Source: Nanobdellota archaeon (lineage in GTDB: Archaea; Nanobdellota; Nanobdellia; Pacearchaeales; GW2011-AR1). From it: 64,000 bases of DNA. The notes beneath the pieces were generated by a model. It worked only from the letters and a program-made list of their open reading frames with translations, searched no databases and was not told where the DNA came from. The position numbers and the translations under genes are program-made. Every line of letters starts with the position of its first letter. Positions within the stretch are counted from its first letter, which is position 1. This document shows positions 16,879-39,735 of this stretch, in pieces. The stretch covers positions 26,780 through 90,779 of the forward strand of contig JAGVNG010000017.1 of the NCBI GenBank assembly GCA_020053375.1. The letters run 5' to 3'.

Positions 16879-16883
16879 AGAAA

Positions 16884-17501
16884 ATGACAGACGAAGATAA
16901 AAAACCAATGGAATTCAAGATATTTGACATGTATGATGTAAGCGAGATTAAGATAGAGGACCCTGGACTAAGAGCGGTCATAAACTTACAGCCAAAGCTC
17001 ATTTTAAAAAGCCAGGGAAGAAATGTAGTGAAGCATGGGCAGACAAAAGTCAATATTGTTGAAAGGCTTATGAATAGGCTCGGAGTTGCAGGACACAGGG
17101 GAAAGAAGCATAAGATAATAATGGGAAGAAGCACGGGAAAATATTCAAAAAATATGGGAATAATTCTTGAAGCGCTAAAAATTGTCGAGGAAAAAACAAA
17201 GAAGAATCCAATAGCCGTTCTTGTCAAAGCAATAGAAAATTCAGCCCCAAGGGATGAAATTACTGTTATAGAGTATGGTGGAGCAAGATATCCTCAGGCA
17301 GTTGATGTTTCTCCAATAAGAAGGGTTAATCTTGCGCTAAGAAACCTTGTTCACGGGGCTGGTGATAGAGCATTCGGAAAAAAGAAGACAATTGTTCAGG
17401 GGCTTTCGGAAGAAATAATTCTTGCCTTCGAGGGAAACGGGGAAAGCTTGGCAATAAAGAAGAGAAATGAAGCAGAGAAACAAGCAGACTCAGCACGATA
17501 A
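16884..17501 (+). CDS. rps7: 30S ribosomal protein S7 (uS7)
   Basis: NPIAVLVKAIENSAPRDEITVIEYGGARYPQAVDVSPIRRVNLALRNL matches the uS7 signature region. Confidence 0.9.
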   Translation: MTDEDKKPMEFKIFDMYDVSEIKIEDPGLRAVINLQPKLILKSQGRNVVKHGQTKVNIVERLMNRLGVAGHRGKKHKIIMGRSTGKYSKNMGIILEALKIVEEKTKKNPIAVLVKAIENSAPRDEITVIEYGGARYPQAVDVSPIRRVNLALRNLVHGAGDRAFGKKKTIVQGLSEEIILAFEGNGESLAIKKRNEAEKQADSAR

Positions 17502-32083: not shown

Positions 32084-33256
32084 ATGAATACAAAAAAAAT
32101 TTGTGTTTCATTTCTCGCAATAGCAGCCGTTTTGTTCTTAGTTGCTAATGTAAGCGCTGGACAGATAACCACAGATTACACTGTTAAGGTTAATGACCAG
32201 AATGCATACGCTTACACTGTTGGCGTTCTTGAGAATGAAAGAATAACTGTTGAAGTTTCTTTCACTTCTTTGGTTAACGACACAGATGTAACAGTCGAAG
32301 CAACACTTAATGGAAAGAAGGCAAATGTCAATGCCGAAACTTCTGTTTTCGATATAGAAGCAGGAGCTAGATATACAAAGACATTGGTTCTTCAAGTGCC
32401 TGCTGGACTTAAGAACGAAGTTAGCGATGCTCTTCTCCTTGAGATGAAGGTCTCAGGACAAGATCATAGAACAGATCTTCAGGATGCGACTTTGAAGGTT
32501 CAGAGAGAATCTTACAGCGTGCAGATACAATCAGTAACAGCTGGAACAATGAAATCTGGACAAGTAGTCCCAGTTGATGTGGTTATCAAGAATGTTGGTT
32601 ACAACAACTTGGATGACCTATATGTAGTTGTTAGAATACCTACATTGAATCTTGAAAGAACAGCATACTTCGGAGACTTGGTGGCTATTGAAGACAAAGA
32701 CAACAATGACAACACTGACACTGTATCCGGAAGATTATTCCTTGAAATTCCATACAGCGCAAAGGCAGGAGTATATGCACTTGAAGTCGAAGCTTCAAAC
32801 GGCGATACAACTGTAAATGCAGTTAAGCAGGTAACAGTATCAAATGAGTTTTCAGGTGGAAACGTAGTTGTTTCCGGTGACAGCTTATTGATTGTTAACC
32901 CTACAAACGAGGTACTAGTTTACAGATTAGTCCCTGAGACTGCGCCTGAGCTTTCTGTCAGCCTAAGTCAGAGCGTTGTAGCTATACCCGCTGGTTCAAG
33001 CAGAACAGTAGACCTAACGGTAACAAGTTCTGCGGTGGGAACATACAACTACAAGATTAACGTGTTCTCCCTAAGCGGAGACTTGTTATATGTAGTCAAC
33101 ATGACAAAAAATGTTGAGGGTTCTAGCACAACAAGTTCAATAGTTGTCTTGACAGTTATACTGGCAATAATCTTTATTGTATTATTGGTGGTTTTGATTG
33201 TCTTGATGGGAAAGAAACCTGAAAAATCTGAAGAGTTCGGAGAAAGTTACTACTAA
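32084..33256 (+). CDS. Secreted cell-surface protein with C-terminal membrane anchor (S-layer-like)
   Basis: N-terminal signal peptide, Thr/Val-rich beta-type repeats, C-terminal TM helix VLTVILAIIFIVLLVVLIVLMGKK. Confidence 0.55.
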   Translation: MNTKKICVSFLAIAAVLFLVANVSAGQITTDYTVKVNDQNAYAYTVGVLENERITVEVSFTSLVNDTDVTVEATLNGKKANVNAETSVFDIEAGARYTKTLVLQVPAGLKNEVSDALLLEMKVSGQDHRTDLQDATLKVQRESYSVQIQSVTAGTMKSGQVVPVDVVIKNVGYNNLDDLYVVVRIPTLNLERTAYFGDLVAIEDKDNNDNTDTVSGRLFLEIPYSAKAGVYALEVEASNGDTTVNAVKQVTVSNEFSGGNVVVSGDSLLIVNPTNEVLVYRLVPETAPELSVSLSQSVVAIPAGSSRTVDLTVTSSAVGTYNYKINVFSLSGDLLYVVNMTKNVEGSSTTSSIVVLTVILAIIFIVLLVVLIVLMGKKPEKSEEFGESYY

Positions 33257-33257
33257 A

Positions 33258-33277
33258 TTTTCTTTTTTTCTTTTTTT
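33258..33277 (+). terminator. T-rich tract after the surface-protein gene
   Basis: tttctttttttctttttttc immediately after the stop codon. Confidence 0.3.
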
Positions 33278-33319
33278 CATAATTTAGCTTTCTCCTTTTT
33301 TATATTAAATGCGTAAGCA

Positions 33320-33685
33320 ATGAGAAAACAAAACAAAATGGGAAAGACAAAGACAATTAAGAGATTAGTAGATGCATTGGAATTTGACAGAAAAAAGAGA
33401 ACAGAAATAGCAGCAGAGATAGCAGAAGTTTTAAGAAATTCTTTTGAAAGTAAATCATACATAATAGTAGATGGTGAAAAATTTCCCTTCATATACAGAT
33501 CTTTAACTCCAATTTCTGATATTATGACAGAATTACATCTAATTCAAAGCATACATCTTCCAAGAAGCATAGACCCTAAAGAAGAACACTGTTTTGAAAA
33601 TTTCTTTGCTTTTAATCCTCAAGCATCACATTTATATAAATCTTTAAAAGAAGACAATTTCTACGAAAAAAGAAAGAGAAAATGA
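33320..33685 (+). CDS. Hypothetical protein, first of six-ORF compact cluster
   Basis: 121-aa ORF. Confidence 0.4.
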   Translation: MRKQNKMGKTKTIKRLVDALEFDRKKRTEIAAEIAEVLRNSFESKSYIIVDGEKFPFIYRSLTPISDIMTELHLIQSIHLPRSIDPKEEHCFENFFAFNPQASHLYKSLKEDNFYEKRKRK

Positions 33686-33942
33686 CAGACGAAGAAAAAA
33701 CAAAGGAAACAAAAATTAGTTTGGAAAAAATTGCTTATACAGTTATACATCTTGGACTCATAAAAGATATTAGAGATGAAGATATTAATAAAGAAACTGT
33801 AAAATTAGCCAGCATGATAATGAATAGGGATCCTGATTGCCGTATCGCAGAAGAGCACCTCCCAGATTTATGGGTTTTAGAACAATATCAGAGATATTAT
33901 GAAGCAGCTAAGATTGCATTAGCAAAATACCGAGTAAAGTAA
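33682..33942 (+). CDS. Hypothetical protein (cluster ORF 2)
   Basis: ATGA start/stop overlap with previous ORF. Confidence 0.4.
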   Translation: MTDEEKTKETKISLEKIAYTVIHLGLIKDIRDEDINKETVKLASMIMNRDPDCRIAEEHLPDLWVLEQYQRYYEAAKIALAKYRVK

Positions 33943-33951
33943 ATAGACAAA

Positions 33952-34539
33952 ATGACAGAAGAAACAAATTCAGAGTACGAAAAGGCAGAAGCGGAAATTA
34001 GGAGTAAATACCGTAAAAAAGTCTATGGAATTACTAAGAAAGGTCTAATCACAGGATTAGCAGGATTTCTTGTAGGATTATCTTTTTCTGGGAAGGGAGT
34101 CTATACCTTTAGTGAGTCAAGCAACACTCCAATATTTAGAGAATATGGAATCAATCAACAGTCTCTATCATATCTAAGGAATAAGTTGGGGGAATATAAA
34201 ATTGTGGAGTTTCCGGAATATCTCTCTGCAGAAACAAAGAGGAATCTTGCTTCCTTAAGATTTGTAGGTCCCTCTGATTCAATTGATATTTCAAATCTGG
34301 AAAAAGAAATTAAAACTGCGGAAAAAGACAGTACAAGGATAGTTAACACAAAAGAAGGTAAGGATTGCTCAGAAAAATTTGCAGAGGCAAGTGGTTTTTT
34401 TAAATATGGACTTTTTGGGGGAATTGGACTGGCTATAATTTCAATGATTGGAATAAGGGTCTTCTCTTTATTTAACGTCGCAAAAAGAGATAAAGAAATA
34501 GATGCTCTTGCTGAGAAGTATGTTATTAATAAAAAATGA
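33952..34539 (+). CDS. Hypothetical membrane protein (cluster ORF 3)
   Basis: Two hydrophobic segments; 195 aa. Confidence 0.45.
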   Translation: MTEETNSEYEKAEAEIRSKYRKKVYGITKKGLITGLAGFLVGLSFSGKGVYTFSESSNTPIFREYGINQQSLSYLRNKLGEYKIVEFPEYLSAETKRNLASLRFVGPSDSIDISNLEKEIKTAEKDSTRIVNTKEGKDCSEKFAEASGFFKYGLFGGIGLAIISMIGIRVFSLFNVAKRDKEIDALAEKYVINKK

Positions 34540-34880
34540 CAGAAAAAACAAGATTAGAGATTGAGGTAAAAACGTGCGGTCATCTAAAAATTAATGTGAG
34601 AAGAGAAATTGGTCATCCAGCCGTTTACATTAATTTAGGCAAGGATAAGAGAGGGGAAATGGACATTGGAAATGTTTTTTGTATAAAAGAAGAAGAAGCT
34701 ATATGCGAACTCACAAAAAAACCTTGTATGCTCTATCATAAAGACAAGAATCATGTCGCTAGAATAGATTTTACACAGGTTAAGAGATGTCCTGTTTATG
34801 ATTTAATTATTCAAAAATACACTGTAGAAGGAAAGAAAAGACGGAAAAATTTTTATGCTGAAAAGGTGAATAGTTTTTAA
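34536..34880 (+). CDS. Cys-rich hypothetical protein (cluster ORF 4)
   Basis: Several Cys/His residues (CGH...C...C...C); ATGA overlap with ORF 3. Confidence 0.4.
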   Translation: MTEKTRLEIEVKTCGHLKINVRREIGHPAVYINLGKDKRGEMDIGNVFCIKEEEAICELTKKPCMLYHKDKNHVARIDFTQVKRCPVYDLIIQKYTVEGKKRRKNFYAEKVNSF

Positions 34881-34889
34881 TAATATAAA

Positions 34890-35117
34890 ATGACAGAAAA
34901 CCTAGAAGATAAAGAAAAACCCTCTTACAAAATACAATTAGATGATTTAGTAGCCTTTACAGGCATACAAAATTATGGGAATAGGAACGAGAAATATATC
35001 CCTTTAGTAAATTCTAATAAGCATATGTTAAGATTTGCCGGAGTTTTTATTTTTCAGATTGCAATGACTTATATCTCATTTGCATCAGCTAATTATCTGC
35101 ATAACTTAGTGAAATAA
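34890..35117 (+). CDS. Small membrane protein, tandem paralog 1 (cluster ORF 5)
   Basis: KPSYKIQLDD...FQIAMTY...LVK parallels the next ORF. Confidence 0.4.
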   Translation: MTENLEDKEKPSYKIQLDDLVAFTGIQNYGNRNEKYIPLVNSNKHMLRFAGVFIFQIAMTYISFASANYLHNLVK

Positions 35118-35125
35118 TAAATAAA

Positions 35126-35359
35126 ATGTCAGCCGAATTAGAAAAGAAGGTAAAGCCTTCCTATAAATTAGATGTGGAGGATTTTCATCCTTTTCCTTTT
35201 GGGCATCATAATTACTATAAAAGAAATAAAGACTTAAATGTAAAATTTGACGAGTATCAAAAAATTAGAGTGAGAACATTTGGACTTCTTGCCTTTAATA
35301 TTGCAATGTTTTCTGGAATAATTTATCTTGACAGATATCTAAGCGGGTTGTTTAAATGA
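35126..35359 (+). CDS. Small membrane protein, tandem paralog 2 (cluster ORF 6)
   Basis: KPSYKLDVED...FNIAMFS...LFK parallels the previous ORF. Confidence 0.4.
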   Translation: MSAELEKKVKPSYKLDVEDFHPFPFGHHNYYKRNKDLNVKFDEYQKIRVRTFGLLAFNIAMFSGIIYLDRYLSGLFK

Positions 35360-35377
35360 TTATAATCGAAGCCAAGA

Positions 35378-38239
35378 TTATAGTTTCAAGCTAATAATCT
35401 TCGATATGCCATCGTGCATGCTTATACCATAGATATTAGTTGCATTTGATATTATCTCATCATTGTGGCTTATCACGATATACTGTCCTTTCTGCATATA
35501 TTTGCTTAGCAGGTTTGCAAGCCTTTCCGAGTTCCTCTTGTCAAGGGCAGCATCTATTTCATCAAGGATGTAGAAACAATATGGACTAAGTTCCTGTATC
35601 GCGAAAATAAGAGAGATAGCAACTAAAGTCTGCTCTCCTCCCGACAAGGAAGTAACATCAAGATATTTTCCATGTCCTGTCTTTACAAGAATATTAACGC
35701 CTGCCTCAAAAGGCTCCTTTGGATTTTCCAATTCAAGAGATACCTGTCCTTTTGTGCTTACCTGCGAGAAATTCCTCAAGAAAGTTTCGTTAAGAGCGTT
35801 CAGTGTTTTTATGAAGGTCTTCTTTTTTTTAATGTCTATCTCCTGAATTATTTTTAGTATGCTTTCCTTTTCCTTTGCAATTATCTCTGTCTTTTCCCTT
35901 ACTGAATCATATTCCTTTTTTACGGAATCATATACTTCCAATGCACGCATATTAACTGTTCCTATCTGGGATATCATTTCTTCTGTCTTTGAAAGCCTTT
36001 CAACAAGGATTTCTCGGCTTGACTTGATTATTTCAATTCCATCATAAACCAGCATTTCTATGCTGAAGTTCTCGATTCCAGCATCTGCCTTTGCCTTTTC
36101 TATCTTGAAGTTATTCATAGCCTGCTCAATATTCTGAACTACGTTTTGCTTTGAAGAAATTTGAATCTCACTCTCGCGTATTCTTTTGCTGAGTGTGTCC
36201 CTATCTGCAATCAGCTTCTGGAATTTTCTGGTTAATTCTTCTTCCTGCTCTTTCTTCTTCTCAAGTGTCTCCTGTTTGCCCTCAATATCCTCTTTTAATC
36301 CGTAAATTTCGTCGTTCAAATCTTCTTCATCTCTTGCTATCTGCTTCAATGCTATTTTTGCACGTTCAAGCTCTCTCTGCTTGAAAGAGATTTCAGAGCT
36401 TATGTTTTCTTCGCTTCGCATGGAAATTTCCTGGACTTCGACCCTTACAATCTCGTATTTCTGCTCAACATTTGCAGAGTCATCAAAGCTTTTTTCAAGC
36501 CTTTTCCTTATGTCTTCCAATTCTGATATTTCTCCTTTAAGATTGTCCAATTTTTCCTGAATTTTTTTGAGAGCAGTCTTCTTTTCATCCACCCCTGAAA
36601 TTTTTATGACATCACCTTCTCTTTTCGAAACTTCTATGTTCATCTGCTCTATATCTTTTGTCAAAACCTCTCGCCTAGAATATATCTCAGCTAGTTCCTT
36701 GTCAGAATCTGCAATTTCACTTTTCAGTTTTTCAACTCTTGGAAATATCTCCTTGTGTATGTGTTCCATGTGGTCTTTTGTTATTTTATTCTTGCATACT
36801 GGACACACATCCATCTTTGATATTTTCTCCATCAGATTATTAGCTTTTTCTATCTCTTTCTCATTGGAGTATGAAACCTTTTCAAGCTCTATCTCCTTTT
36901 TAGCCAGTTCTCCAAGAAGCTTTTTTTTGTTTACAATTGAAATCCTAAGGTTTTCAAGCTTGCCTCTGTCCGCACCCTTATCAAACAATTCATGATAAGA
37001 AGATTCCATCTGTCTGACTAGCAATGCAGACTCATTTGAGTTTGCCTGGAAGAGATTTTTCTTGTCTTCAATTCTTTCTCTTATTGACTTAAGTTCTGAT
37101 TTTATTGTATAGAATTTTTTCCTTTCTTCCTCCAATTTTTCAAGTTCCTTCTTTTTTAAGACAATGTCCCTCTCTTTTTTTGTCTTTGGAGAAGCGCCTG
37201 CAAGATCTTTTATCGACTGCGCGTTCTCGTCTATTGAATGCTTGAGTTCCTGCTTCTGTTTTATAATGGATGAGATTTTGGACTGAAAGTTCTCAAGCCT
37301 TACTCCCATTCCAGCAAGCTCTGCCCTTATATTCGCGATTTCTTGGTTTAGGCTTTCCTGCTGAATTCCTGTTGTTTTTTGAATAACTGCGTTAATATCT
37401 GCAATTTTTGATTCAAAACTTCTTATAGCTGCTTCCAGTTCCATTATCTCTTTCTTTACCTTGTCTATTTCCTTGTTTCTTCCAGCAATTTCCTCATTTA
37501 TATGTTCCAGTTCCTTTTTTCTTTTTGTCAAATCAAAGTGTATTATGCTTGCCTTAAATTTTTTCACATCCGCCTCAAGCTTCTTGAATCTCAGCGCCTG
37601 CTGTCTTTCCTTTTCAAGATTATTTAAGTAAGATGTTCTCTCTCTAAGGATTGCAAGAACTTCTTTCAGTTTTTCTTCTGTTTTTTCAAGTTCGTGCAAC
37701 GACTTCTCCTTTCTGGACTCGTATACAGATATTCCCGCAACTTCCTCTATTATTTTTCTCCTGTCTTCGTTATGCATTCGCACAAAATTCTGGATTTCTC
37801 CCTGAAGGATTATATTAAATCCATTTGGGTCTATTCCAGCCTGTGCAAGAAGAGACAAAATTTCCTGTCTTGTCTTTACTTCATCATTTAATTTGTATAT
37901 GCTTTGTCCGTTTTTTCTTACTATTCTTTTTACGGACACCTCAGCAGAATCGTAAGGGGTGGAAAAGCCCTTGTCAGAGTTGTCAAAAACAACCTCAACC
38001 ATTGCTTCCTTTGCGGGGGAGGCTTCCTTTGTTCCGAAGAAAATAAGATTGCCAGCCTTTGCTGCCCTCATCGATTTACTGCTTAATCTTCCAAGAACAA
38101 AGCACAGCGCATCAGAGACATTGCTTTTGCCAGAGCCATTTGGACCAACAATAACATTTATTCCTTCCGTAAATGGTATTTCTGTCTTTCTTGGAAAACT
38201 TTTGAAGCCATGCATCACCAGTTTCTTGATATAAACCAT
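35378..38239 (-). CDS. smc: SMC-family ATPase with Rad50-like CPVC zinc hook in place of a hinge domain
   Basis: N-terminal FKSF...VIVGPNGSGKSNVSDALCFVLG, Q-loop ILQGEI, C-terminal LSGGEQTLVAISLIFAIQ...FYILDEIDAALD (all SMC-type); at the midpoint KMDVCPVCKNKITKDH; no Gly-rich hinge; 953 aa. Confidence 0.8.
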   Translation of the reverse strand: MVYIKKLVMHGFKSFPRKTEIPFTEGINVIVGPNGSGKSNVSDALCFVLGRLSSKSMRAAKAGNLIFFGTKEASPAKEAMVEVVFDNSDKGFSTPYDSAEVSVKRIVRKNGQSIYKLNDEVKTRQEILSLLAQAGIDPNGFNIILQGEIQNFVRMHNEDRRKIIEEVAGISVYESRKEKSLHELEKTEEKLKEVLAILRERTSYLNNLEKERQQALRFKKLEADVKKFKASIIHFDLTKRKKELEHINEEIAGRNKEIDKVKKEIMELEAAIRSFESKIADINAVIQKTTGIQQESLNQEIANIRAELAGMGVRLENFQSKISSIIKQKQELKHSIDENAQSIKDLAGASPKTKKERDIVLKKKELEKLEEERKKFYTIKSELKSIRERIEDKKNLFQANSNESALLVRQMESSYHELFDKGADRGKLENLRISIVNKKKLLGELAKKEIELEKVSYSNEKEIEKANNLMEKISKMDVCPVCKNKITKDHMEHIHKEIFPRVEKLKSEIADSDKELAEIYSRREVLTKDIEQMNIEVSKREGDVIKISGVDEKKTALKKIQEKLDNLKGEISELEDIRKRLEKSFDDSANVEQKYEIVRVEVQEISMRSEENISSEISFKQRELERAKIALKQIARDEEDLNDEIYGLKEDIEGKQETLEKKKEQEEELTRKFQKLIADRDTLSKRIRESEIQISSKQNVVQNIEQAMNNFKIEKAKADAGIENFSIEMLVYDGIEIIKSSREILVERLSKTEEMISQIGTVNMRALEVYDSVKKEYDSVREKTEIIAKEKESILKIIQEIDIKKKKTFIKTLNALNETFLRNFSQVSTKGQVSLELENPKEPFEAGVNILVKTGHGKYLDVTSLSGGEQTLVAISLIFAIQELSPYCFYILDEIDAALDKRNSERLANLLSKYMQKGQYIVISHNDEIISNATNIYGISMHDGISKIISLKL

Positions 38240-38838: not shown

Positions 38839-39735
38839 ATGAATAAACAAAGTAATAAAGGATATAAAAACATAAGTTATCATAAACCAAAAGAATGTCC
38901 TTATTGTAAGAACAAGAACATTGTTAAGTTTGGATATAGATATAATTGCACGAAGAAAAAGCAACGTTGGAAATGTAAAGATTGTTTTAAACTCTGGGTT
39001 ATAGAAGATGGTTTTTGGAAGATGAAAAAGACAAGAGAGTTGATAACTCAATGTTTAAATTTGTATATGAACGGAATGTCTTTAAGGAAAGTTGCAAGGC
39101 ATATCAATCAATTTTCAGAAGTAAAGACGACTTATAGAAGCGTTCATAATTGGTTAATGAAGTATAGTTTTATGCTTAATCCTTTTTCTCAAACAATAGA
39201 TTATGATTTATCAAGAGTTTATCATGTTGATGAGATTTTTGTTAAGTGTAAGGGTGAACAACATTACTTTTGGGATATTATAGACAGAGATACAAGAGTT
39301 TTAGTTGCTAATCACTACTCAACTAAAAGAGATGGCAGGAGTGCAAGAACATTATTCTTGAAAGTCAAAAATCCACCAATGAGATTATTTTCTGATGGCT
39401 TGCAAGGATATAGAAAAGCATTTAGAAAAGTTTGGGGGCAGAAAACAAGAAGGCAGGATAGATTAATCTACACAAGATTAAAGCAAAGCCAAGATAGAAG
39501 AAATAACATAGTTGAAAGAATACAAGGAACAATCAGAGAAAGAGTAAAGGTTATGCGGGGATTTAAGGCAATTTGGAGTGCTAAAGCATTTCTTGAATTG
39601 TTTGCAGTCTATTATAACTTCTTGCGTTATCACGAAGGTATAGATAGCACACCAATAGAAAAAGCAGGAATTAACCTTAATCTCGAAGGCAACCAATGGC
39701 TAAATCTGATTTATAGGAGTAAGGGAATATTTTAA
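38839..39735 (+). mobile_element. IS6-family transposase gene with N-terminal zinc finger (IS ends not resolved)
   Basis: CPYCKN...CTKKKQRWKCKDC zinc finger, DDE-type core, C-terminal RNNIVERIQGTIRERVKVMRGFKAIWSAKAFLELF block characteristic of IS6/IS26-family transposases. Confidence 0.7.

What the first reader, a model, noticed from the sequence alone, without database searches (positions are those of the whole stretch)
33320..35359. Compact cluster of six small, overlapping ORFs sharing an aaaATGACAGA start context, ending in a tandem paralog pair
Six ORFs (75-195 aa) are packed with ATGA or 4-nt overlaps. Four begin aaaATGACAGA (MTE/MTD), and the fifth begins aaaATGTCAGC. The last two are clear paralogs (KPSYK...AFNIAM...LFK). 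Some have TM segments and one is Cys-rich. The start context of ORF 2 (aaaatgacagacgaagaaaaaac) is almost identical over about 20 nt to that of rps7 (aaaatgacagacgaagataaaaaac). This architecture is typical of small-genome viruses, plasmid modules or archaeal surface-appendage loci. None of the proteins is recognisable.
Basis: seen in the sequence. Interest (0 to 1): 0.5.

Follow-up and report, generated by a model that had tools for sequence, protein, structure and literature searches.

The report
Small-protein operon beside archaeal surface-protein gene
Six tightly packed small genes in a tiny-celled DPANN (Pacearchaeota-type) archaeon form a real chromosomal operon next to its main surface-protein gene; four of them belong to undescribed, fast-evolving protein families found only in close relatives, and nothing points to a virus or plasmid.

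Summary
There are six co-directional ORFs at 33320-35359. Four start AAAATGACAGA. O5 and O6 are paralogs, O3, O5 and O6 have membrane segments, and O4 is Cys-rich.

The host is a Pacearchaeota/Woesearchaeota-type archaeon. The cluster fills the gap between a conserved 390-aa surface (S-layer-like) protein gene and a convergent smc gene.

O3 (family A, 2-TM hairpin), O4 (family B, all-beta, four conserved Cys plus His, confident AF2 model with no PDB match) and O5/O6 (family C/C', tail-anchored) have homologs only in related DPANN metagenomes. With further unknown families (D, E, F) they recur in varying combinations at the same spot, directly after the surface-protein gene, in at least 7 genomes. 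A conserved terminator-plus-promoter spacer precedes them. O1 and O2 have no homologs.

There were no hits in Pfam, NCBIfam, PHROGs, PADLOC, IMG/VR, BFVD, phage or plasmid collections.

The start motif has two parts. AAA before ATG is the clade's common context (22% of genes, 86% of cluster genes). ACAGA (Met-Thr-Glu) is specific to these families (11 of 37 cluster genes against 3 of about 1240 others).

The likeliest reading is a translationally coupled, rapidly evolving envelope-associated membrane module. That function is inferred, not shown. Interest is moderate.

The parts
32084..33256 (+). Context: conserved 390-aa surface (S-layer-like) protein gene. It has an N-terminal signal peptide, Ig-like beta domains, a C-terminal TM anchor and a conserved cytoplasmic tail, GKKPEKSEEFGESYY.
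   Evidence: Faint Ig-like Pfam hits. At least 1473 homologs, those with source names from Nanoarchaeota/Pacearchaeota, some carrying PF11614. It lies convergent to smc in 51 of 80 related loci. The signal peptide and anchor are read from the sequence.
33258..33277 (+). T-rich run (TTTTCTTTTTTTCTTTTTTT) just after the surface-protein stop codon; read as an archaeal oligo-T terminator.
   Evidence: Sequence. The T-run is conserved in all 7 aligned loci. Terminator function is inferred from general knowledge of archaeal oligo-T termination.
33279..33309 (+). Conserved spacer ATAATTTAGCTTTCTCC followed by the TATA-like TTTTTTATATTAAA; read as the cluster's own promoter.
   Evidence: Nearly invariant across the window, L081, L082/L095, L086, L093 and L094, although the flanking proteins are only about 70% identical. 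Promoter function is inferred. No Rfam family matches here.
33320..33685 (+). O1: 121 aa, basic (pI 9.5), soluble, no homologs. The alternative start at 33338 (115 aa, MGKTKT) fits the TATA spacing better.
   Evidence: Only a self-hit among 1.84 billion representatives. Its first ~16 residues and upstream DNA align with the first gene of the closest relative's cluster (L082). There is a weak, non-significant resemblance of residues 11-69 to a winged-helix domain (3cta, E about 1).
33682..33942 (+). O2: 86 aa, acidic (pI 5.7), no hydrophobic segment, no homologs; starts AAAATGACAGACGAAGA, the same 17 nt as rps7.
   Evidence: Weak, non-significant match to the archaeal RelB antitoxin 1wmi_B (E = 0.24).
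33952..34539 (+). O3, family A: 195 aa. A basic N-terminal cytoplasmic stretch, TM1 (~31-47), a ~100-aa helical extracytoplasmic domain, TM2 (~150-175) and a basic C-terminal helix.
   Evidence: About 12 family representatives at 22-43% identity. AF2 model pLDDT 82.6, all-helical. Hydrophobicity. Topology is inferred from the positive-inside rule.
34536..34880 (+). O4, family B: 114 aa, soluble, all-beta. Conserved C14 (at least 90% of sequences), mostly conserved H16, and invariant C57, C64 and C85-P86. Presumed metal (Zn) site.
34890..35117 (+). O5, family C/C': 75 aa, tail-anchored (hydrophobic segment ~46-67), N-terminus MTENLEDKEKPSYK.
   Evidence: It also matches the C' profile (E = 1e-5). 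C and C' are related by hhalign (82% probability, E = 1e-5).
35126..35359 (+). O6, family C: 77 aa, tail-anchored, N-terminus MSAELEKKVKPSYK. Its stop codon lies 18 nt from the stop of convergent smc.
   Evidence: Homologs at 45-65% identity.
33679..33689 (+). Start motif AAAATGACAGA, first of four copies. The others are at 33949-33959, 34533-34543 and 34887-34897. A fifth copy is at rps7, 16881-16891.
   Evidence: The local repeats around these starts extend to 24-40 nt at 73-92% identity (D1, D2, D4).
35378..38239 (-). Context: smc (953 aa), convergent with the cluster. It was used as the anchor to find related genomes.
   Evidence: Pfam SMC_N, E = 1.6e-57. 80 related loci retrieved.

Best explanation
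**Shown**
- The six ORFs are native chromosomal genes of a Pacearchaeota-type DPANN archaeon.
- They form one compact co-directional unit. It begins right after the oligo-T run of the conserved 390-aa surface-protein gene, behind a conserved TATA-like spacer, and ends 18 nt from convergent smc.
- Consecutive genes are joined by ATGA overlaps or 8-9-nt A/T spacers with no Shine-Dalgarno-like sequence.
- O3, O4 and O5/O6 belong to three undescribed, clade-restricted families:
  - A: a 2-TM hairpin.
  - B: a ~110-aa beta protein with four conserved Cys plus His.
  - C/C': tail-anchored proteins.
- These families recur in varying combinations, together with families D, E and F, at this same position in at least 7 related genomes. 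They diverge much faster than their neighbours.
- O1 and O2 are specific to this genome.

**Inferred**
- The genes are translated by termination-reinitiation coupling from one mRNA.
- The products assemble into a small envelope-associated membrane complex: the A hairpin exposes a ~100-aa helical domain outside the cell, C/C' are anchored in the membrane with cytoplasmic N-domains, and B is a cytoplasmic metal-binding partner.
- This complex works with the neighbouring surface protein in anchoring, assembly or cell-cell contact, and evolves under pressure from hosts or viruses.

**The shared AAAATGACAGA has two layers**
- AAA-ATG is the clade's common SD-less initiation context and is nearly universal in these clusters.
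- ACA-GAA encodes an inherited Met-Thr-Glu N-terminus of families B and C/C'. In this genome O2 and O3 carry it too.
For: **Host and position**
- smc relatives are all DPANN genomes.
- The surface-gene/smc adjacency is conserved in 51 of 80 loci, with a gap of 37 bp to 4.1 kb between the two genes.

**Families**
- A full HMMER search found about 12 (A), 30 (B) and 7 (C) representatives and only self-hits for O1 and O2.

**Co-occurrence directly after the surface-protein gene**
- L081: SL-A-C'-D-C.
- L086: SL-2TM-B.
- L093: GNAT-133aa-SL-B-252-259-D-F-E-C-E.
- L094: SL-B-75-D-C-E.
- L098: SL-72-B-C-E.
- L095+L082/L083, the closest relative with SL 90% identical: SL-A'-B-B.
- L002/L096/L097: F-A'-C'-C-E, between smc and the contig end.

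**Other evidence**
- The terminator/promoter spacer is conserved.
- Divergence is fast: SL 70-72%, SMC 72-82% and GNAT 66% identical, against A 44%, B 40-54% and C 31-65%.
- Structure and topology.
- Start context: AAA at -3..-1 in 32 of 37 cluster ORFs against about 22% of 1251 genes. The exact motif is in 11 of 37 against 3 of about 1240. MT[ED] is in 12 of 37 against 13 of about 1240.
- The N-terminus is the best-conserved part of family C.
- Codon usage is like the host's.
Against: - There is no experimental or homology-based functional evidence for any protein. The envelope-complex idea rests on topology prediction and gene neighbourhood alone.
- Family A also occurs alone elsewhere: after CDC48 (L090-L092) and before nusA-rps12-rps7 (L087). 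It is therefore not strictly tied to the surface-protein gene.
- In 50 more distant relatives the same gap holds toxin-antitoxin pairs, a methyltransferase or unrelated small ORFs. The position is therefore also a general variable hotspot.
- O1 and O2 have no conservation support beyond codon usage.
- Transcription as one mRNA, translational coupling, metal binding by O4 and physical interactions are all untested.
- The Fisher P-values count homologous genes as independent events and so overstate significance.
Confidence: 0.45

Rival explanations
1. Cargo of a variable defence or toxin-antitoxin island. The surface-gene/smc gap is a hotspot for small accessory modules. This cluster, or at least O1-O2 (a basic plus acidic overlapping pair), would be a membrane-acting abortive-infection or TA-like system and would have nothing to do with the surface protein.
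For: - In relatives the same gap carries HicAB-, RelE-, VapBC- and MazF-like pairs and GNATs.
- O1 (pI 9.5) and O2 (pI 5.7) overlap by 4 nt.
- O2 weakly resembles the archaeal RelB 1wmi_B (E = 0.24).
- Rapid turnover of gene content is typical of defence loci.
Against: - No PADLOC hit at E <= 1, and no Pfam TA family for any ORF.
- The O2 match is not significant.
- A conserved promoter spacer and a conserved B...C...E order across at least 7 genomes fit a vertically inherited operon better than swapped cassettes.
Confidence: 0.15
2. A degenerate or domesticated integrated mobile element (a small archaeal virus or plasmid remnant), which would explain the dense one-directional small ORFs, membrane proteins and a Cys-rich protein.
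For:
- An IS240-type transposase lies 600 bp beyond smc.
- All proteins are without known relatives or clade-restricted.
- L093 carries a longer version with 250-270-aa proteins of unknown function.
Against: - No integrase, Rep or capsid-like hit.
- No relatives in IMG/VR, INPHARED, PLSDB or BFVD.
- No flanking direct repeats.
- GC content, GC3 and codon usage equal the host's.
- The insertion point and upstream spacer are identical in genomes that have diverged to about 70% protein identity. That argues for vertical descent.
Confidence: 0.1
3. No joint function. These are unrelated lineage-specific small genes that happen to sit together. The start motif would simply reflect A-rich codon preference (ACA, GAA) and the usual small residue at position 2 for initiator-Met removal.
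For: - AAA-ATG is the commonest context genome-wide.
- ACA and GAA are A-rich codons, which I assume are the preferred ones in this 35% GC genome (GC; codon preference not tabulated).
- Family A occurs alone elsewhere.
- Other start types such as MAK and MTK are common.
Against: - MT[ED] starts are 12 of 37 in these clusters against about 1% elsewhere, and the exact 11-mer is 11 of 37 against 3 of about 1240.
- B, C/C', D and E recur together in a conserved relative order at one position in at least 7 genomes.
Confidence: 0.15
4. Some or all of the ORFs are spurious, chance open frames in AT-rich DNA.
For: O1 and O2 have no homolog anywhere. Long ORFs arise easily in AT-poor-stop contexts. An antisense ORF at 33277-33492 also scores positive on the crude codon test.
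Against: - O3-O6 have homologs with E values from 1e-12 down to 1e-34 and conserved motifs.
- O4 folds with pLDDT 90.
- The six ORFs tile the gap with no spare space, in one direction, with coupled junctions.
- Frame-specific codon signal is present for all six.
Confidence: 0.03

Closest known systems
S-layer operons with a membrane-anchoring partner (e.g. slaA-slaB of Sulfolobales)
   Same: A major surface-protein gene is followed in the same direction by gene(s) for membrane-inserted, partly coiled or helical proteins that could connect the surface layer to the membrane. This comparison comes from my own knowledge, not from a test.
   Different: - No sequence or profile similarity was found.
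- Here the surface protein has its own C-terminal TM anchor.
- The partners are several very small proteins transcribed from a separate promoter.
- They are restricted to a narrow clade, and family A also occurs away from the surface-protein gene.
Pacearchaeota/Woesearchaeota-specific protein-family modules of unknown function (Module 98 in PMC8204110)
   Same: These are clade-restricted families with no Pfam domain, as that paper reports for 51 families specific to these two lineages.
   Different: I could not check whether A, B or C are among those 51 families. The families found here appear much narrower in distribution: among the 80 smc-anchored loci from GTDB species genomes, only L002, plus a distant A-family hit in L080, carry them.
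Type II toxin-antitoxin pairs (RelBE, HicAB, VapBC, MazEF) occupying the same hotspot in relatives
   Same: Small overlapping gene pairs, one basic and one acidic (O1/O2), at the same chromosomal position.
   Different: No significant match to any TA family. O3-O6 are membrane or Cys-rich proteins unlike TA components.
Small OB-fold nucleic-acid-binding domains, some with Zn inserts (SSB, PriB, RPA, MCM N-terminal domain)
Translationally coupled operons with ATGA or TAA-N-ATG junctions (termination-reinitiation)
   Same: Two ATGA overlaps and three 8-9-nt SD-less spacers in the window. TAA-A-ATG junctions occur in related clusters.
   Different: Coupling itself is ordinary. What is unusual is a shared Met-Thr-Glu start across non-homologous neighbouring genes.

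Membership tests
Virus or provirus of archaea/bacteria | Proteins related to known viral protein families, or presence on viral contigs | tested here: not met
   PHROGs gave only E >= 0.02 (related-cluster proteins). IMG/VR scans with the six ORFs and with A, B, C and F found no relative. INPHARED tblastn of O3 and O4 gave no match. BFVD fold search of O4 gave E > 1.
Virus or provirus of archaea/bacteria | Integration hallmarks: integrase, flanking direct repeats, atypical composition | tested here: not met
   No integrase among the ORFs. No flanking repeat longer than 16 nt. GC 0.33-0.36 as in the surrounding DNA. Codon usage and GC3 as in the host.
Plasmid module | Homologs on plasmid records, or replication/partition genes | tested here: not met
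   PLSDB tblastn with O4 gave no match; the other ORFs were not searched there. No Rep or Par domains.
Archaeal type IV pilus / archaellum (surface-appendage) locus | Pilin-like subunits with an N-terminal class III signal peptide (short charged N-terminus, then a hydrophobic helix at the very start) | tested here: not met
   Read from the sequences. In O3 the first hydrophobic stretch starts at about residue 31, after a 30-residue charged region. O5 and O6 are hydrophobic only at the C-terminus. O1, O2 and O4 have none.
Archaeal type IV pilus / archaellum (surface-appendage) locus | Assembly ATPase (PilB/FlaI), membrane platform (PilC/FlaJ), prepilin peptidase nearby | tested here: not met
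   Neighbours within about 6 kb either side are a Toprim-domain primase-like protein, a NYN nuclease, a GNAT, a 135-aa unknown, the surface protein, SMC, an IS transposase and a Holliday-junction-resolvase-like nuclease.
Known anti-phage defence systems (PADLOC) | Match to a defence-system protein model | tested here: not met
   No hits at E <= 1 for all six ORFs.
Type II toxin-antitoxin pair (O1/O2) | Recognisable toxin and antitoxin domains in an overlapping two-gene unit | tested here: inconclusive
   The architecture fits: 4-nt overlap, pI 9.5 and 5.7. There is no Pfam or NCBIfam hit, and only a non-significant O2 match to aRelB (E = 0.24).
zf-CHCC zinc finger (PF10276) for O4 | Score above Pfam's gathering threshold, covering the metal ligands | tested here: not met
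   18.9 bits against a cut-off of 27. The matched residues 24-38 contain none of the conserved Cys. Only 1 of 21 family members hits.
OB-fold proteins for O4 | Five-stranded closed beta-barrel superposing on known OB folds with a significant score | tested here: inconclusive
Metal-binding (Zn) protein for O4 | Four spatially clustered Cys/His ligands; bound metal | not testable with these tools
   C57, C64 and C85 are invariant, C14 is in at least 90% of sequences and H16 in most.
Single translationally coupled operon | One promoter, no internal terminators, stop/start overlap or proximity, co-transcription | tested here: inconclusive
   There is a conserved TATA-like element upstream of O1. 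Junctions are -4 to +9 nt. No + strand terminator-like site lies within the cluster. Co-transcription cannot be tested here.

The most novel reading that the evidence does not exclude
Families A, B, C/C' (with D, E, F) make up a previously undescribed, DPANN-specific multi-protein envelope module. It is genetically coupled to the main surface-protein gene, includes a new small Cys4-type beta fold (family B), and carries a shared Met-Thr-Glu N-terminal signature that marks its subunits for a common processing or assembly step. The module could mediate surface-layer anchoring or attachment to host cells in these presumed symbionts.
Probability: 0.25. Interest if true: 0.6.

Novelty: categorically new. 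Interest (0 to 1): 0.4.

Why it matters
- **Biological context.** Pacearchaeota and Woesearchaeota are abundant and, to my knowledge, uncultivated. They have very small genomes and are thought to live attached to other cells, so their envelope is where that lifestyle is decided, and almost nothing is known about it.
- **A concrete target.** A conserved-position, fast-evolving operon of membrane and metal-binding mini-proteins next to the main surface-protein gene could be studied for envelope organisation or host contact.
- **Structure.** Family B offers a confidently predicted small fold with no solved relative.
- **Caveat on novelty.** The label 'categorically new' means only that no described family or system could be matched. 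It does not mean that a new mechanism has been demonstrated. Clusters of genes without known relatives are common in DPANN genomes, so the finding is moderately interesting.
- **Start motif.** The shared start is a minor curiosity about how N-termini and SD-less initiation contexts are kept in coupled operons.

Tried and rejected
- **Concatenated six-ORF query in the word-indexed protein search.** It found nothing, which was a false negative from candidate dilution: the full HMMER search later found the families. The profile search with A2 in the same indexed tool recovered only 5 proteins.
- **Genome-contig scan with the six ORFs.** No relatives. The second scan, with SMC, supplied the synteny set.
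- **Fold search.** The AFDB50 library was unavailable.
- **Profile-profile tests.** B against C showed no relation. A against A' was not significant. A common origin of all cluster genes is therefore not supported. O1 and O2 against all cluster-family HMMs gave nothing.
- **PDB sequence searches for A, B, O1, O2 and the 252-, 259- and 270-aa proteins of L093.** Nothing significant. A p14/SF3b hit to the C-terminus of family A (E = 0.0025) was treated as compositional (basic helix).
- **Rfam on the region.** Nothing.
- **Sigma-70-type promoter scan.** Not informative for an archaeon.
- **Gene conversion between neighbouring starts.** I considered that the 24-40-nt repeats around the starts reflect recent gene conversion. 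I could not separate this from AT-rich composition plus shared N-terminal codons.
- **The closest relative's contig (L095).** It ends 50 nt after the surface-protein gene, so conservation of O1 and O2 could not be tested directly. The overlapping contig L082 shows a different first gene there.
Full report
**1. What is in the sequence**

Between 33320 and 35359 the + strand carries six ORFs:
- O1, 33320-33685, 121 aa
- O2, 33682-33942, 86 aa
- O3, 33952-34539, 195 aa
- O4, 34536-34880, 114 aa
- O5, 34890-35117, 75 aa
- O6, 35126-35359, 77 aa

They tile the interval completely. O1/O2 and O3/O4 overlap by 4 nt (ATGA). The other three junctions are 8-9-nt A/T-rich spacers with no Shine-Dalgarno-like sequence.

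AAAATGACAGA occurs five times in the 64-kb window, against 0.18 expected from shuffles. Four occurrences are the starts of O2-O5 and the fifth is rps7. O2 and rps7 share 17 identical bases.

Other properties (unless stated):
- O5 and O6 are paralogs (38% identity, E = 4e-9).
- O3 has two hydrophobic segments; O5 and O6 have one each, at the C-terminus.
- O4 has five Cys.
- O1 is basic (pI 9.5) and O2 acidic (pI 5.7).

GC content, GC3 and frame-specific codon usage of all six ORFs match the window's other genes. This score does not separate them from antisense ORFs.

**2. Organism and position**

The flanking genes are as follows.
- Upstream: a Toprim-domain primase-like gene, a NYN nuclease, a GNAT, a 135-aa unknown, and a 390-aa protein. 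The 390-aa protein has a signal peptide, faint Ig-like domain hits, a C-terminal TM anchor and the tail GKKPEKSEEFGESYY.
- Downstream: a convergent smc gene whose stop codon is 18 nt from O6's.

SMC relatives in one-genome-per-species GTDB contigs are all Pacearchaeota, Woesearchaeota or Nanoarchaeota MAGs, apart from one record labelled Bacillota, which I take to be mis-binned. The best are 88%, 82% and 76% identical. The 390-aa protein has at least 1473 homologs, and those with a source name are from Nanoarchaeota or Pacearchaeota.

In 51 of 80 smc-anchored loci the surface-protein gene lies convergent to smc. The gap between them ranges from 37 bp to 4.1 kb. In the more distant relatives the gap holds a protein-isoaspartate methyltransferase, HicAB-, RelE-, VapBC- and MazF-like pairs, GNATs, or unrelated small ORFs. 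The position is therefore a variable hotspot across the wider group.

**3. Are the proteins known?**

No ORF reaches significance in Pfam, NCBIfam, PHROGs or PADLOC. A word-indexed search with the concatenated proteins found nothing. A full HMMER scan of 1.84 billion representatives did find homologs:
- O3: about 12 (family A, 22-43% identity)
- O4: about 30 (family B)
- O5/O6: about 7 (family C)
- O1 and O2: only themselves

Where a source name is given it is 'hypothetical protein', and the window's own contig is a 94.6-kb record.

Family features:
- **Family A** conserves an N-terminal EYE..AE motif, TPIYxEY..NQNSLSYLR, FPEYLS and ISxLEKAI..A..DSxRI.N.
- **Family B** has invariant C57, C64 and C85-P86, with C14 in at least 90% of sequences and H16 mostly conserved.
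- **Family C** is best conserved at its N-terminus, M-[TS]-E-x-L-E-x-K-x-K-P-S-Y-K.

AlphaFold2 with the family alignments gave these models:
- O3: all-helical (pLDDT 82.6, pTM 0.47). This is consistent with a membrane hairpin and a roughly 100-residue helical loop.

**4. Co-conservation**

Contig look-ups show the same families directly after the surface-protein gene in other genomes.

| Locus | Gene order |
|---|---|
| L081 | SL-A-C'-D-C, then convergent genes and smc |
| L086 | SL-(2-TM protein)-B-... |
| L093 | GNAT-133aa-SL-B-252-259-D-F-E-C-E |
| L094 | SL-B-75-D-C-E |
| L098 | SL-72-B-C-E |
| L095+L082/L083 (closest relative, SL 90% identical) | SL-A'-B-B |
| L002/L096/L097 | F-A'-C'-C-E, beyond smc-PIMT-VapBC |

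C' is a divergent branch of C (hhalign 82% probability, E = 1e-5), and O5 matches both profiles. None of the extra families (D, E, F, 252, 259, 75) hits Pfam, PHROGs or the PDB.

The ~60-nt spacer after the surface-protein stop codon is nearly invariant in all these loci, although the flanking proteins are only about 70% identical. It consists of an oligo-T run, ATAATTTAGCTTTCTCC and the TATA-like TTTTTTATATTAA. I read it as terminator plus promoter, which is an inference.

The cluster proteins diverge much faster than their neighbours:
- Neighbours: SL 70-72%, SMC 72-82%, GNAT 66% identical.
- Cluster: A 44%, B 40-54%, C 31-65% identical.

Gene content also turns over. Among the 80 smc-anchored loci from GTDB species genomes, only L002, plus a distant family-A hit in L080, carries these families, so the module appears confined to a narrow clade.

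Family A also occurs alone: after CDC48, convergent with methionine aminopeptidase (L090-L092), and before nusA-rps12-rps7 (L087).

**5. The start context**

Across 1251 genes called in the window plus 80 loci, AAA is the commonest triplet before ATG (22%). MT[ED] starts make up 1.4%. The exact 11-mer occurs 8 times, 5 of them in these clusters.

| Feature | 37 non-redundant cluster ORFs from 8 genomes | Other genes (~1240) | Fisher P |
|---|---|---|---|
| AAA before ATG | 32 | 268 | 3e-16 |
| MT[ED] start | 12 | 13 | 2e-13 |
| Exact AAAATGACAGA | 11 | 3 | 8e-16 |

These tests treat homologous genes as independent, so the P-values are overstated.

The motif is found mainly in families B and C/C' in every genome, so Met-Thr-Glu is an inherited N-terminal feature of those families. 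In the window it is also carried by O3, whose homologs mostly start differently, and by O2. Other highly expressed genes in the window, such as the large ORFs I take to be RNA polymerase subunits and elongation factors, do not use it.

Why Thr-Glu is kept is unknown. Possibilities include an unstructured A-rich initiation region for SD-less reinitiation, or a small second residue allowing Met removal and N-acetylation. Both come from general knowledge and neither was tested.

**6. Interpretation**

- **Best reading (confidence about 0.45):** a native, separately promoted, translationally coupled operon. It encodes a small envelope-associated membrane module that is functionally tied to the adjacent surface protein and evolves fast. 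The parts are the A hairpin with an exposed helical domain, tail-anchored C/C', and the soluble Cys4(+His) protein B. O1 and O2 are strain-specific additions. The genes, families, synteny, conserved spacer and divergence rates are shown. Co-transcription, coupling, topology, metal binding, complex formation and any link to the surface layer are inferred.
- **Rivals:**
  - Defence or TA-island cargo (0.15). The hotspot carries TA pairs in relatives and O1/O2 look TA-like, but there is no PADLOC or Pfam support.
  - A domesticated mobile-element remnant (0.10). Every viral and plasmid test was negative, and the junction is the same across diverged genomes.
  - Unrelated neighbours with no joint function (0.15).
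  - Spurious ORFs (0.03; excluded for O3-O6).

**7. Comparison with known systems**

No tested membership held: virus, plasmid, pilus/archaellum, PADLOC defence, TA, zf-CHCC or OB fold.
- In function, the nearest analogy is an S-layer gene with membrane-anchor partner genes such as slaA/slaB (my own knowledge), but there is no homology.
- In kind, it resembles the Pacearchaeota/Woesearchaeota-specific families of unknown function reported in PMC8204110.

I label it 'categorically new' only in the sense that nothing described could be matched. The biological surprise is moderate, because clusters without known relatives are common in DPANN genomes. Interest is 0.4.

Noticed in passing
window 33257-33309; L081 1677-1730; L082 1-55; L086, L093, L094 equivalents: The ~60-nt spacer after the surface-protein gene (oligo-T run, ATAATTTAGCTTTCTCC, TATA-like box) is better conserved at the DNA level than the flanking coding sequences, across genomes about 30% diverged in protein sequence. 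It may be a strong or regulated promoter, or a protein-binding site.
   Followed up: partly
window 33215-33256 (C-terminus of the 390-aa protein); same in L081, L086, L093, L094: The short cytoplasmic tail of the surface protein, GKKP(E/R)KSEEFGESYY, is almost invariant among relatives. This suggests it binds a cytoplasmic partner.
   Followed up: no
window 33256-35378 versus 51 related loci (L004-L080): The gap between the surface-protein gene and smc is a hypervariable hotspot (37 bp to 4.1 kb). In most relatives it carries a protein-isoaspartate methyltransferase next to smc, plus HicAB-, RelE-, VapBC- or MazF-like pairs. This window lacks the methyltransferase at this position.
   Followed up: partly
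window 33679-33695 and 16881-16897: O2 and rps7 share 17 identical bases at their starts (AAAATGACAGACGAAGA; MTDEE against MTDED). The cause could be chance, convergence or capture of a 5' end; this was not resolved. The one other rps7 seen (L087) has its upstream sequence masked by N.
   Followed up: partly
window 33310-33345 versus L082 56-100: O1's upstream DNA and first ~16 codons (MRKQNKMGKTKTIKRL) align with the start of the unrelated first gene (A', MRERRENKKMTKILKK) of the closest relative's cluster. The 5' 'head' of the operon seems to be kept while the gene body behind it has been replaced.
   Followed up: partly
window 38839-39735: A DDE transposase (IS240-type; Pfam E = 3.7e-19) lies immediately upstream of the smc start. 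It interrupts the smc-RNase HII neighbourhood seen in relatives such as L081.
   Followed up: no
L090 9001-9600, L091 717-1316, L092 5151-5735: A second subgroup of family A sits alone between CDC48 and a convergent methionine aminopeptidase plus GNAT. This position is conserved in three contigs.
   Followed up: partly
L090 3246-3710: A 154-aa ORF with a reverse-transcriptase (RVT_1) hit lies among small unknown ORFs in a related archaeal contig. It could be part of a retroelement or a diversity-generating element.
   Followed up: no
L054 and the source record of P0014 (HUW43690.1): Records labelled 'Bacillota bacterium' carry archaeal-type smc synteny and a family A protein. The MAG is probably mis-binned or mis-classified.
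   Followed up: no
L002 7400-7480: A run of N splits what looks like an extra family-C copy that starts AAAATGACAGAA. The strain variants L096 and L097 have only one C copy, so this may be an assembly artefact.
   Followed up: partly
L083 49-577; L089 419-1333: Family B occurs as tandem paralogs (B-B2) in the closest relative. In L089 it is followed by another Cys-rich 127-aa ORF that the B profile does not detect.
   Followed up: partly
window 33277-33492 (- strand): A 71-aa antisense ORF overlaps the promoter spacer and O1. It scores positive on the crude codon test, as antisense frames often do, and is probably spurious.
   Followed up: no
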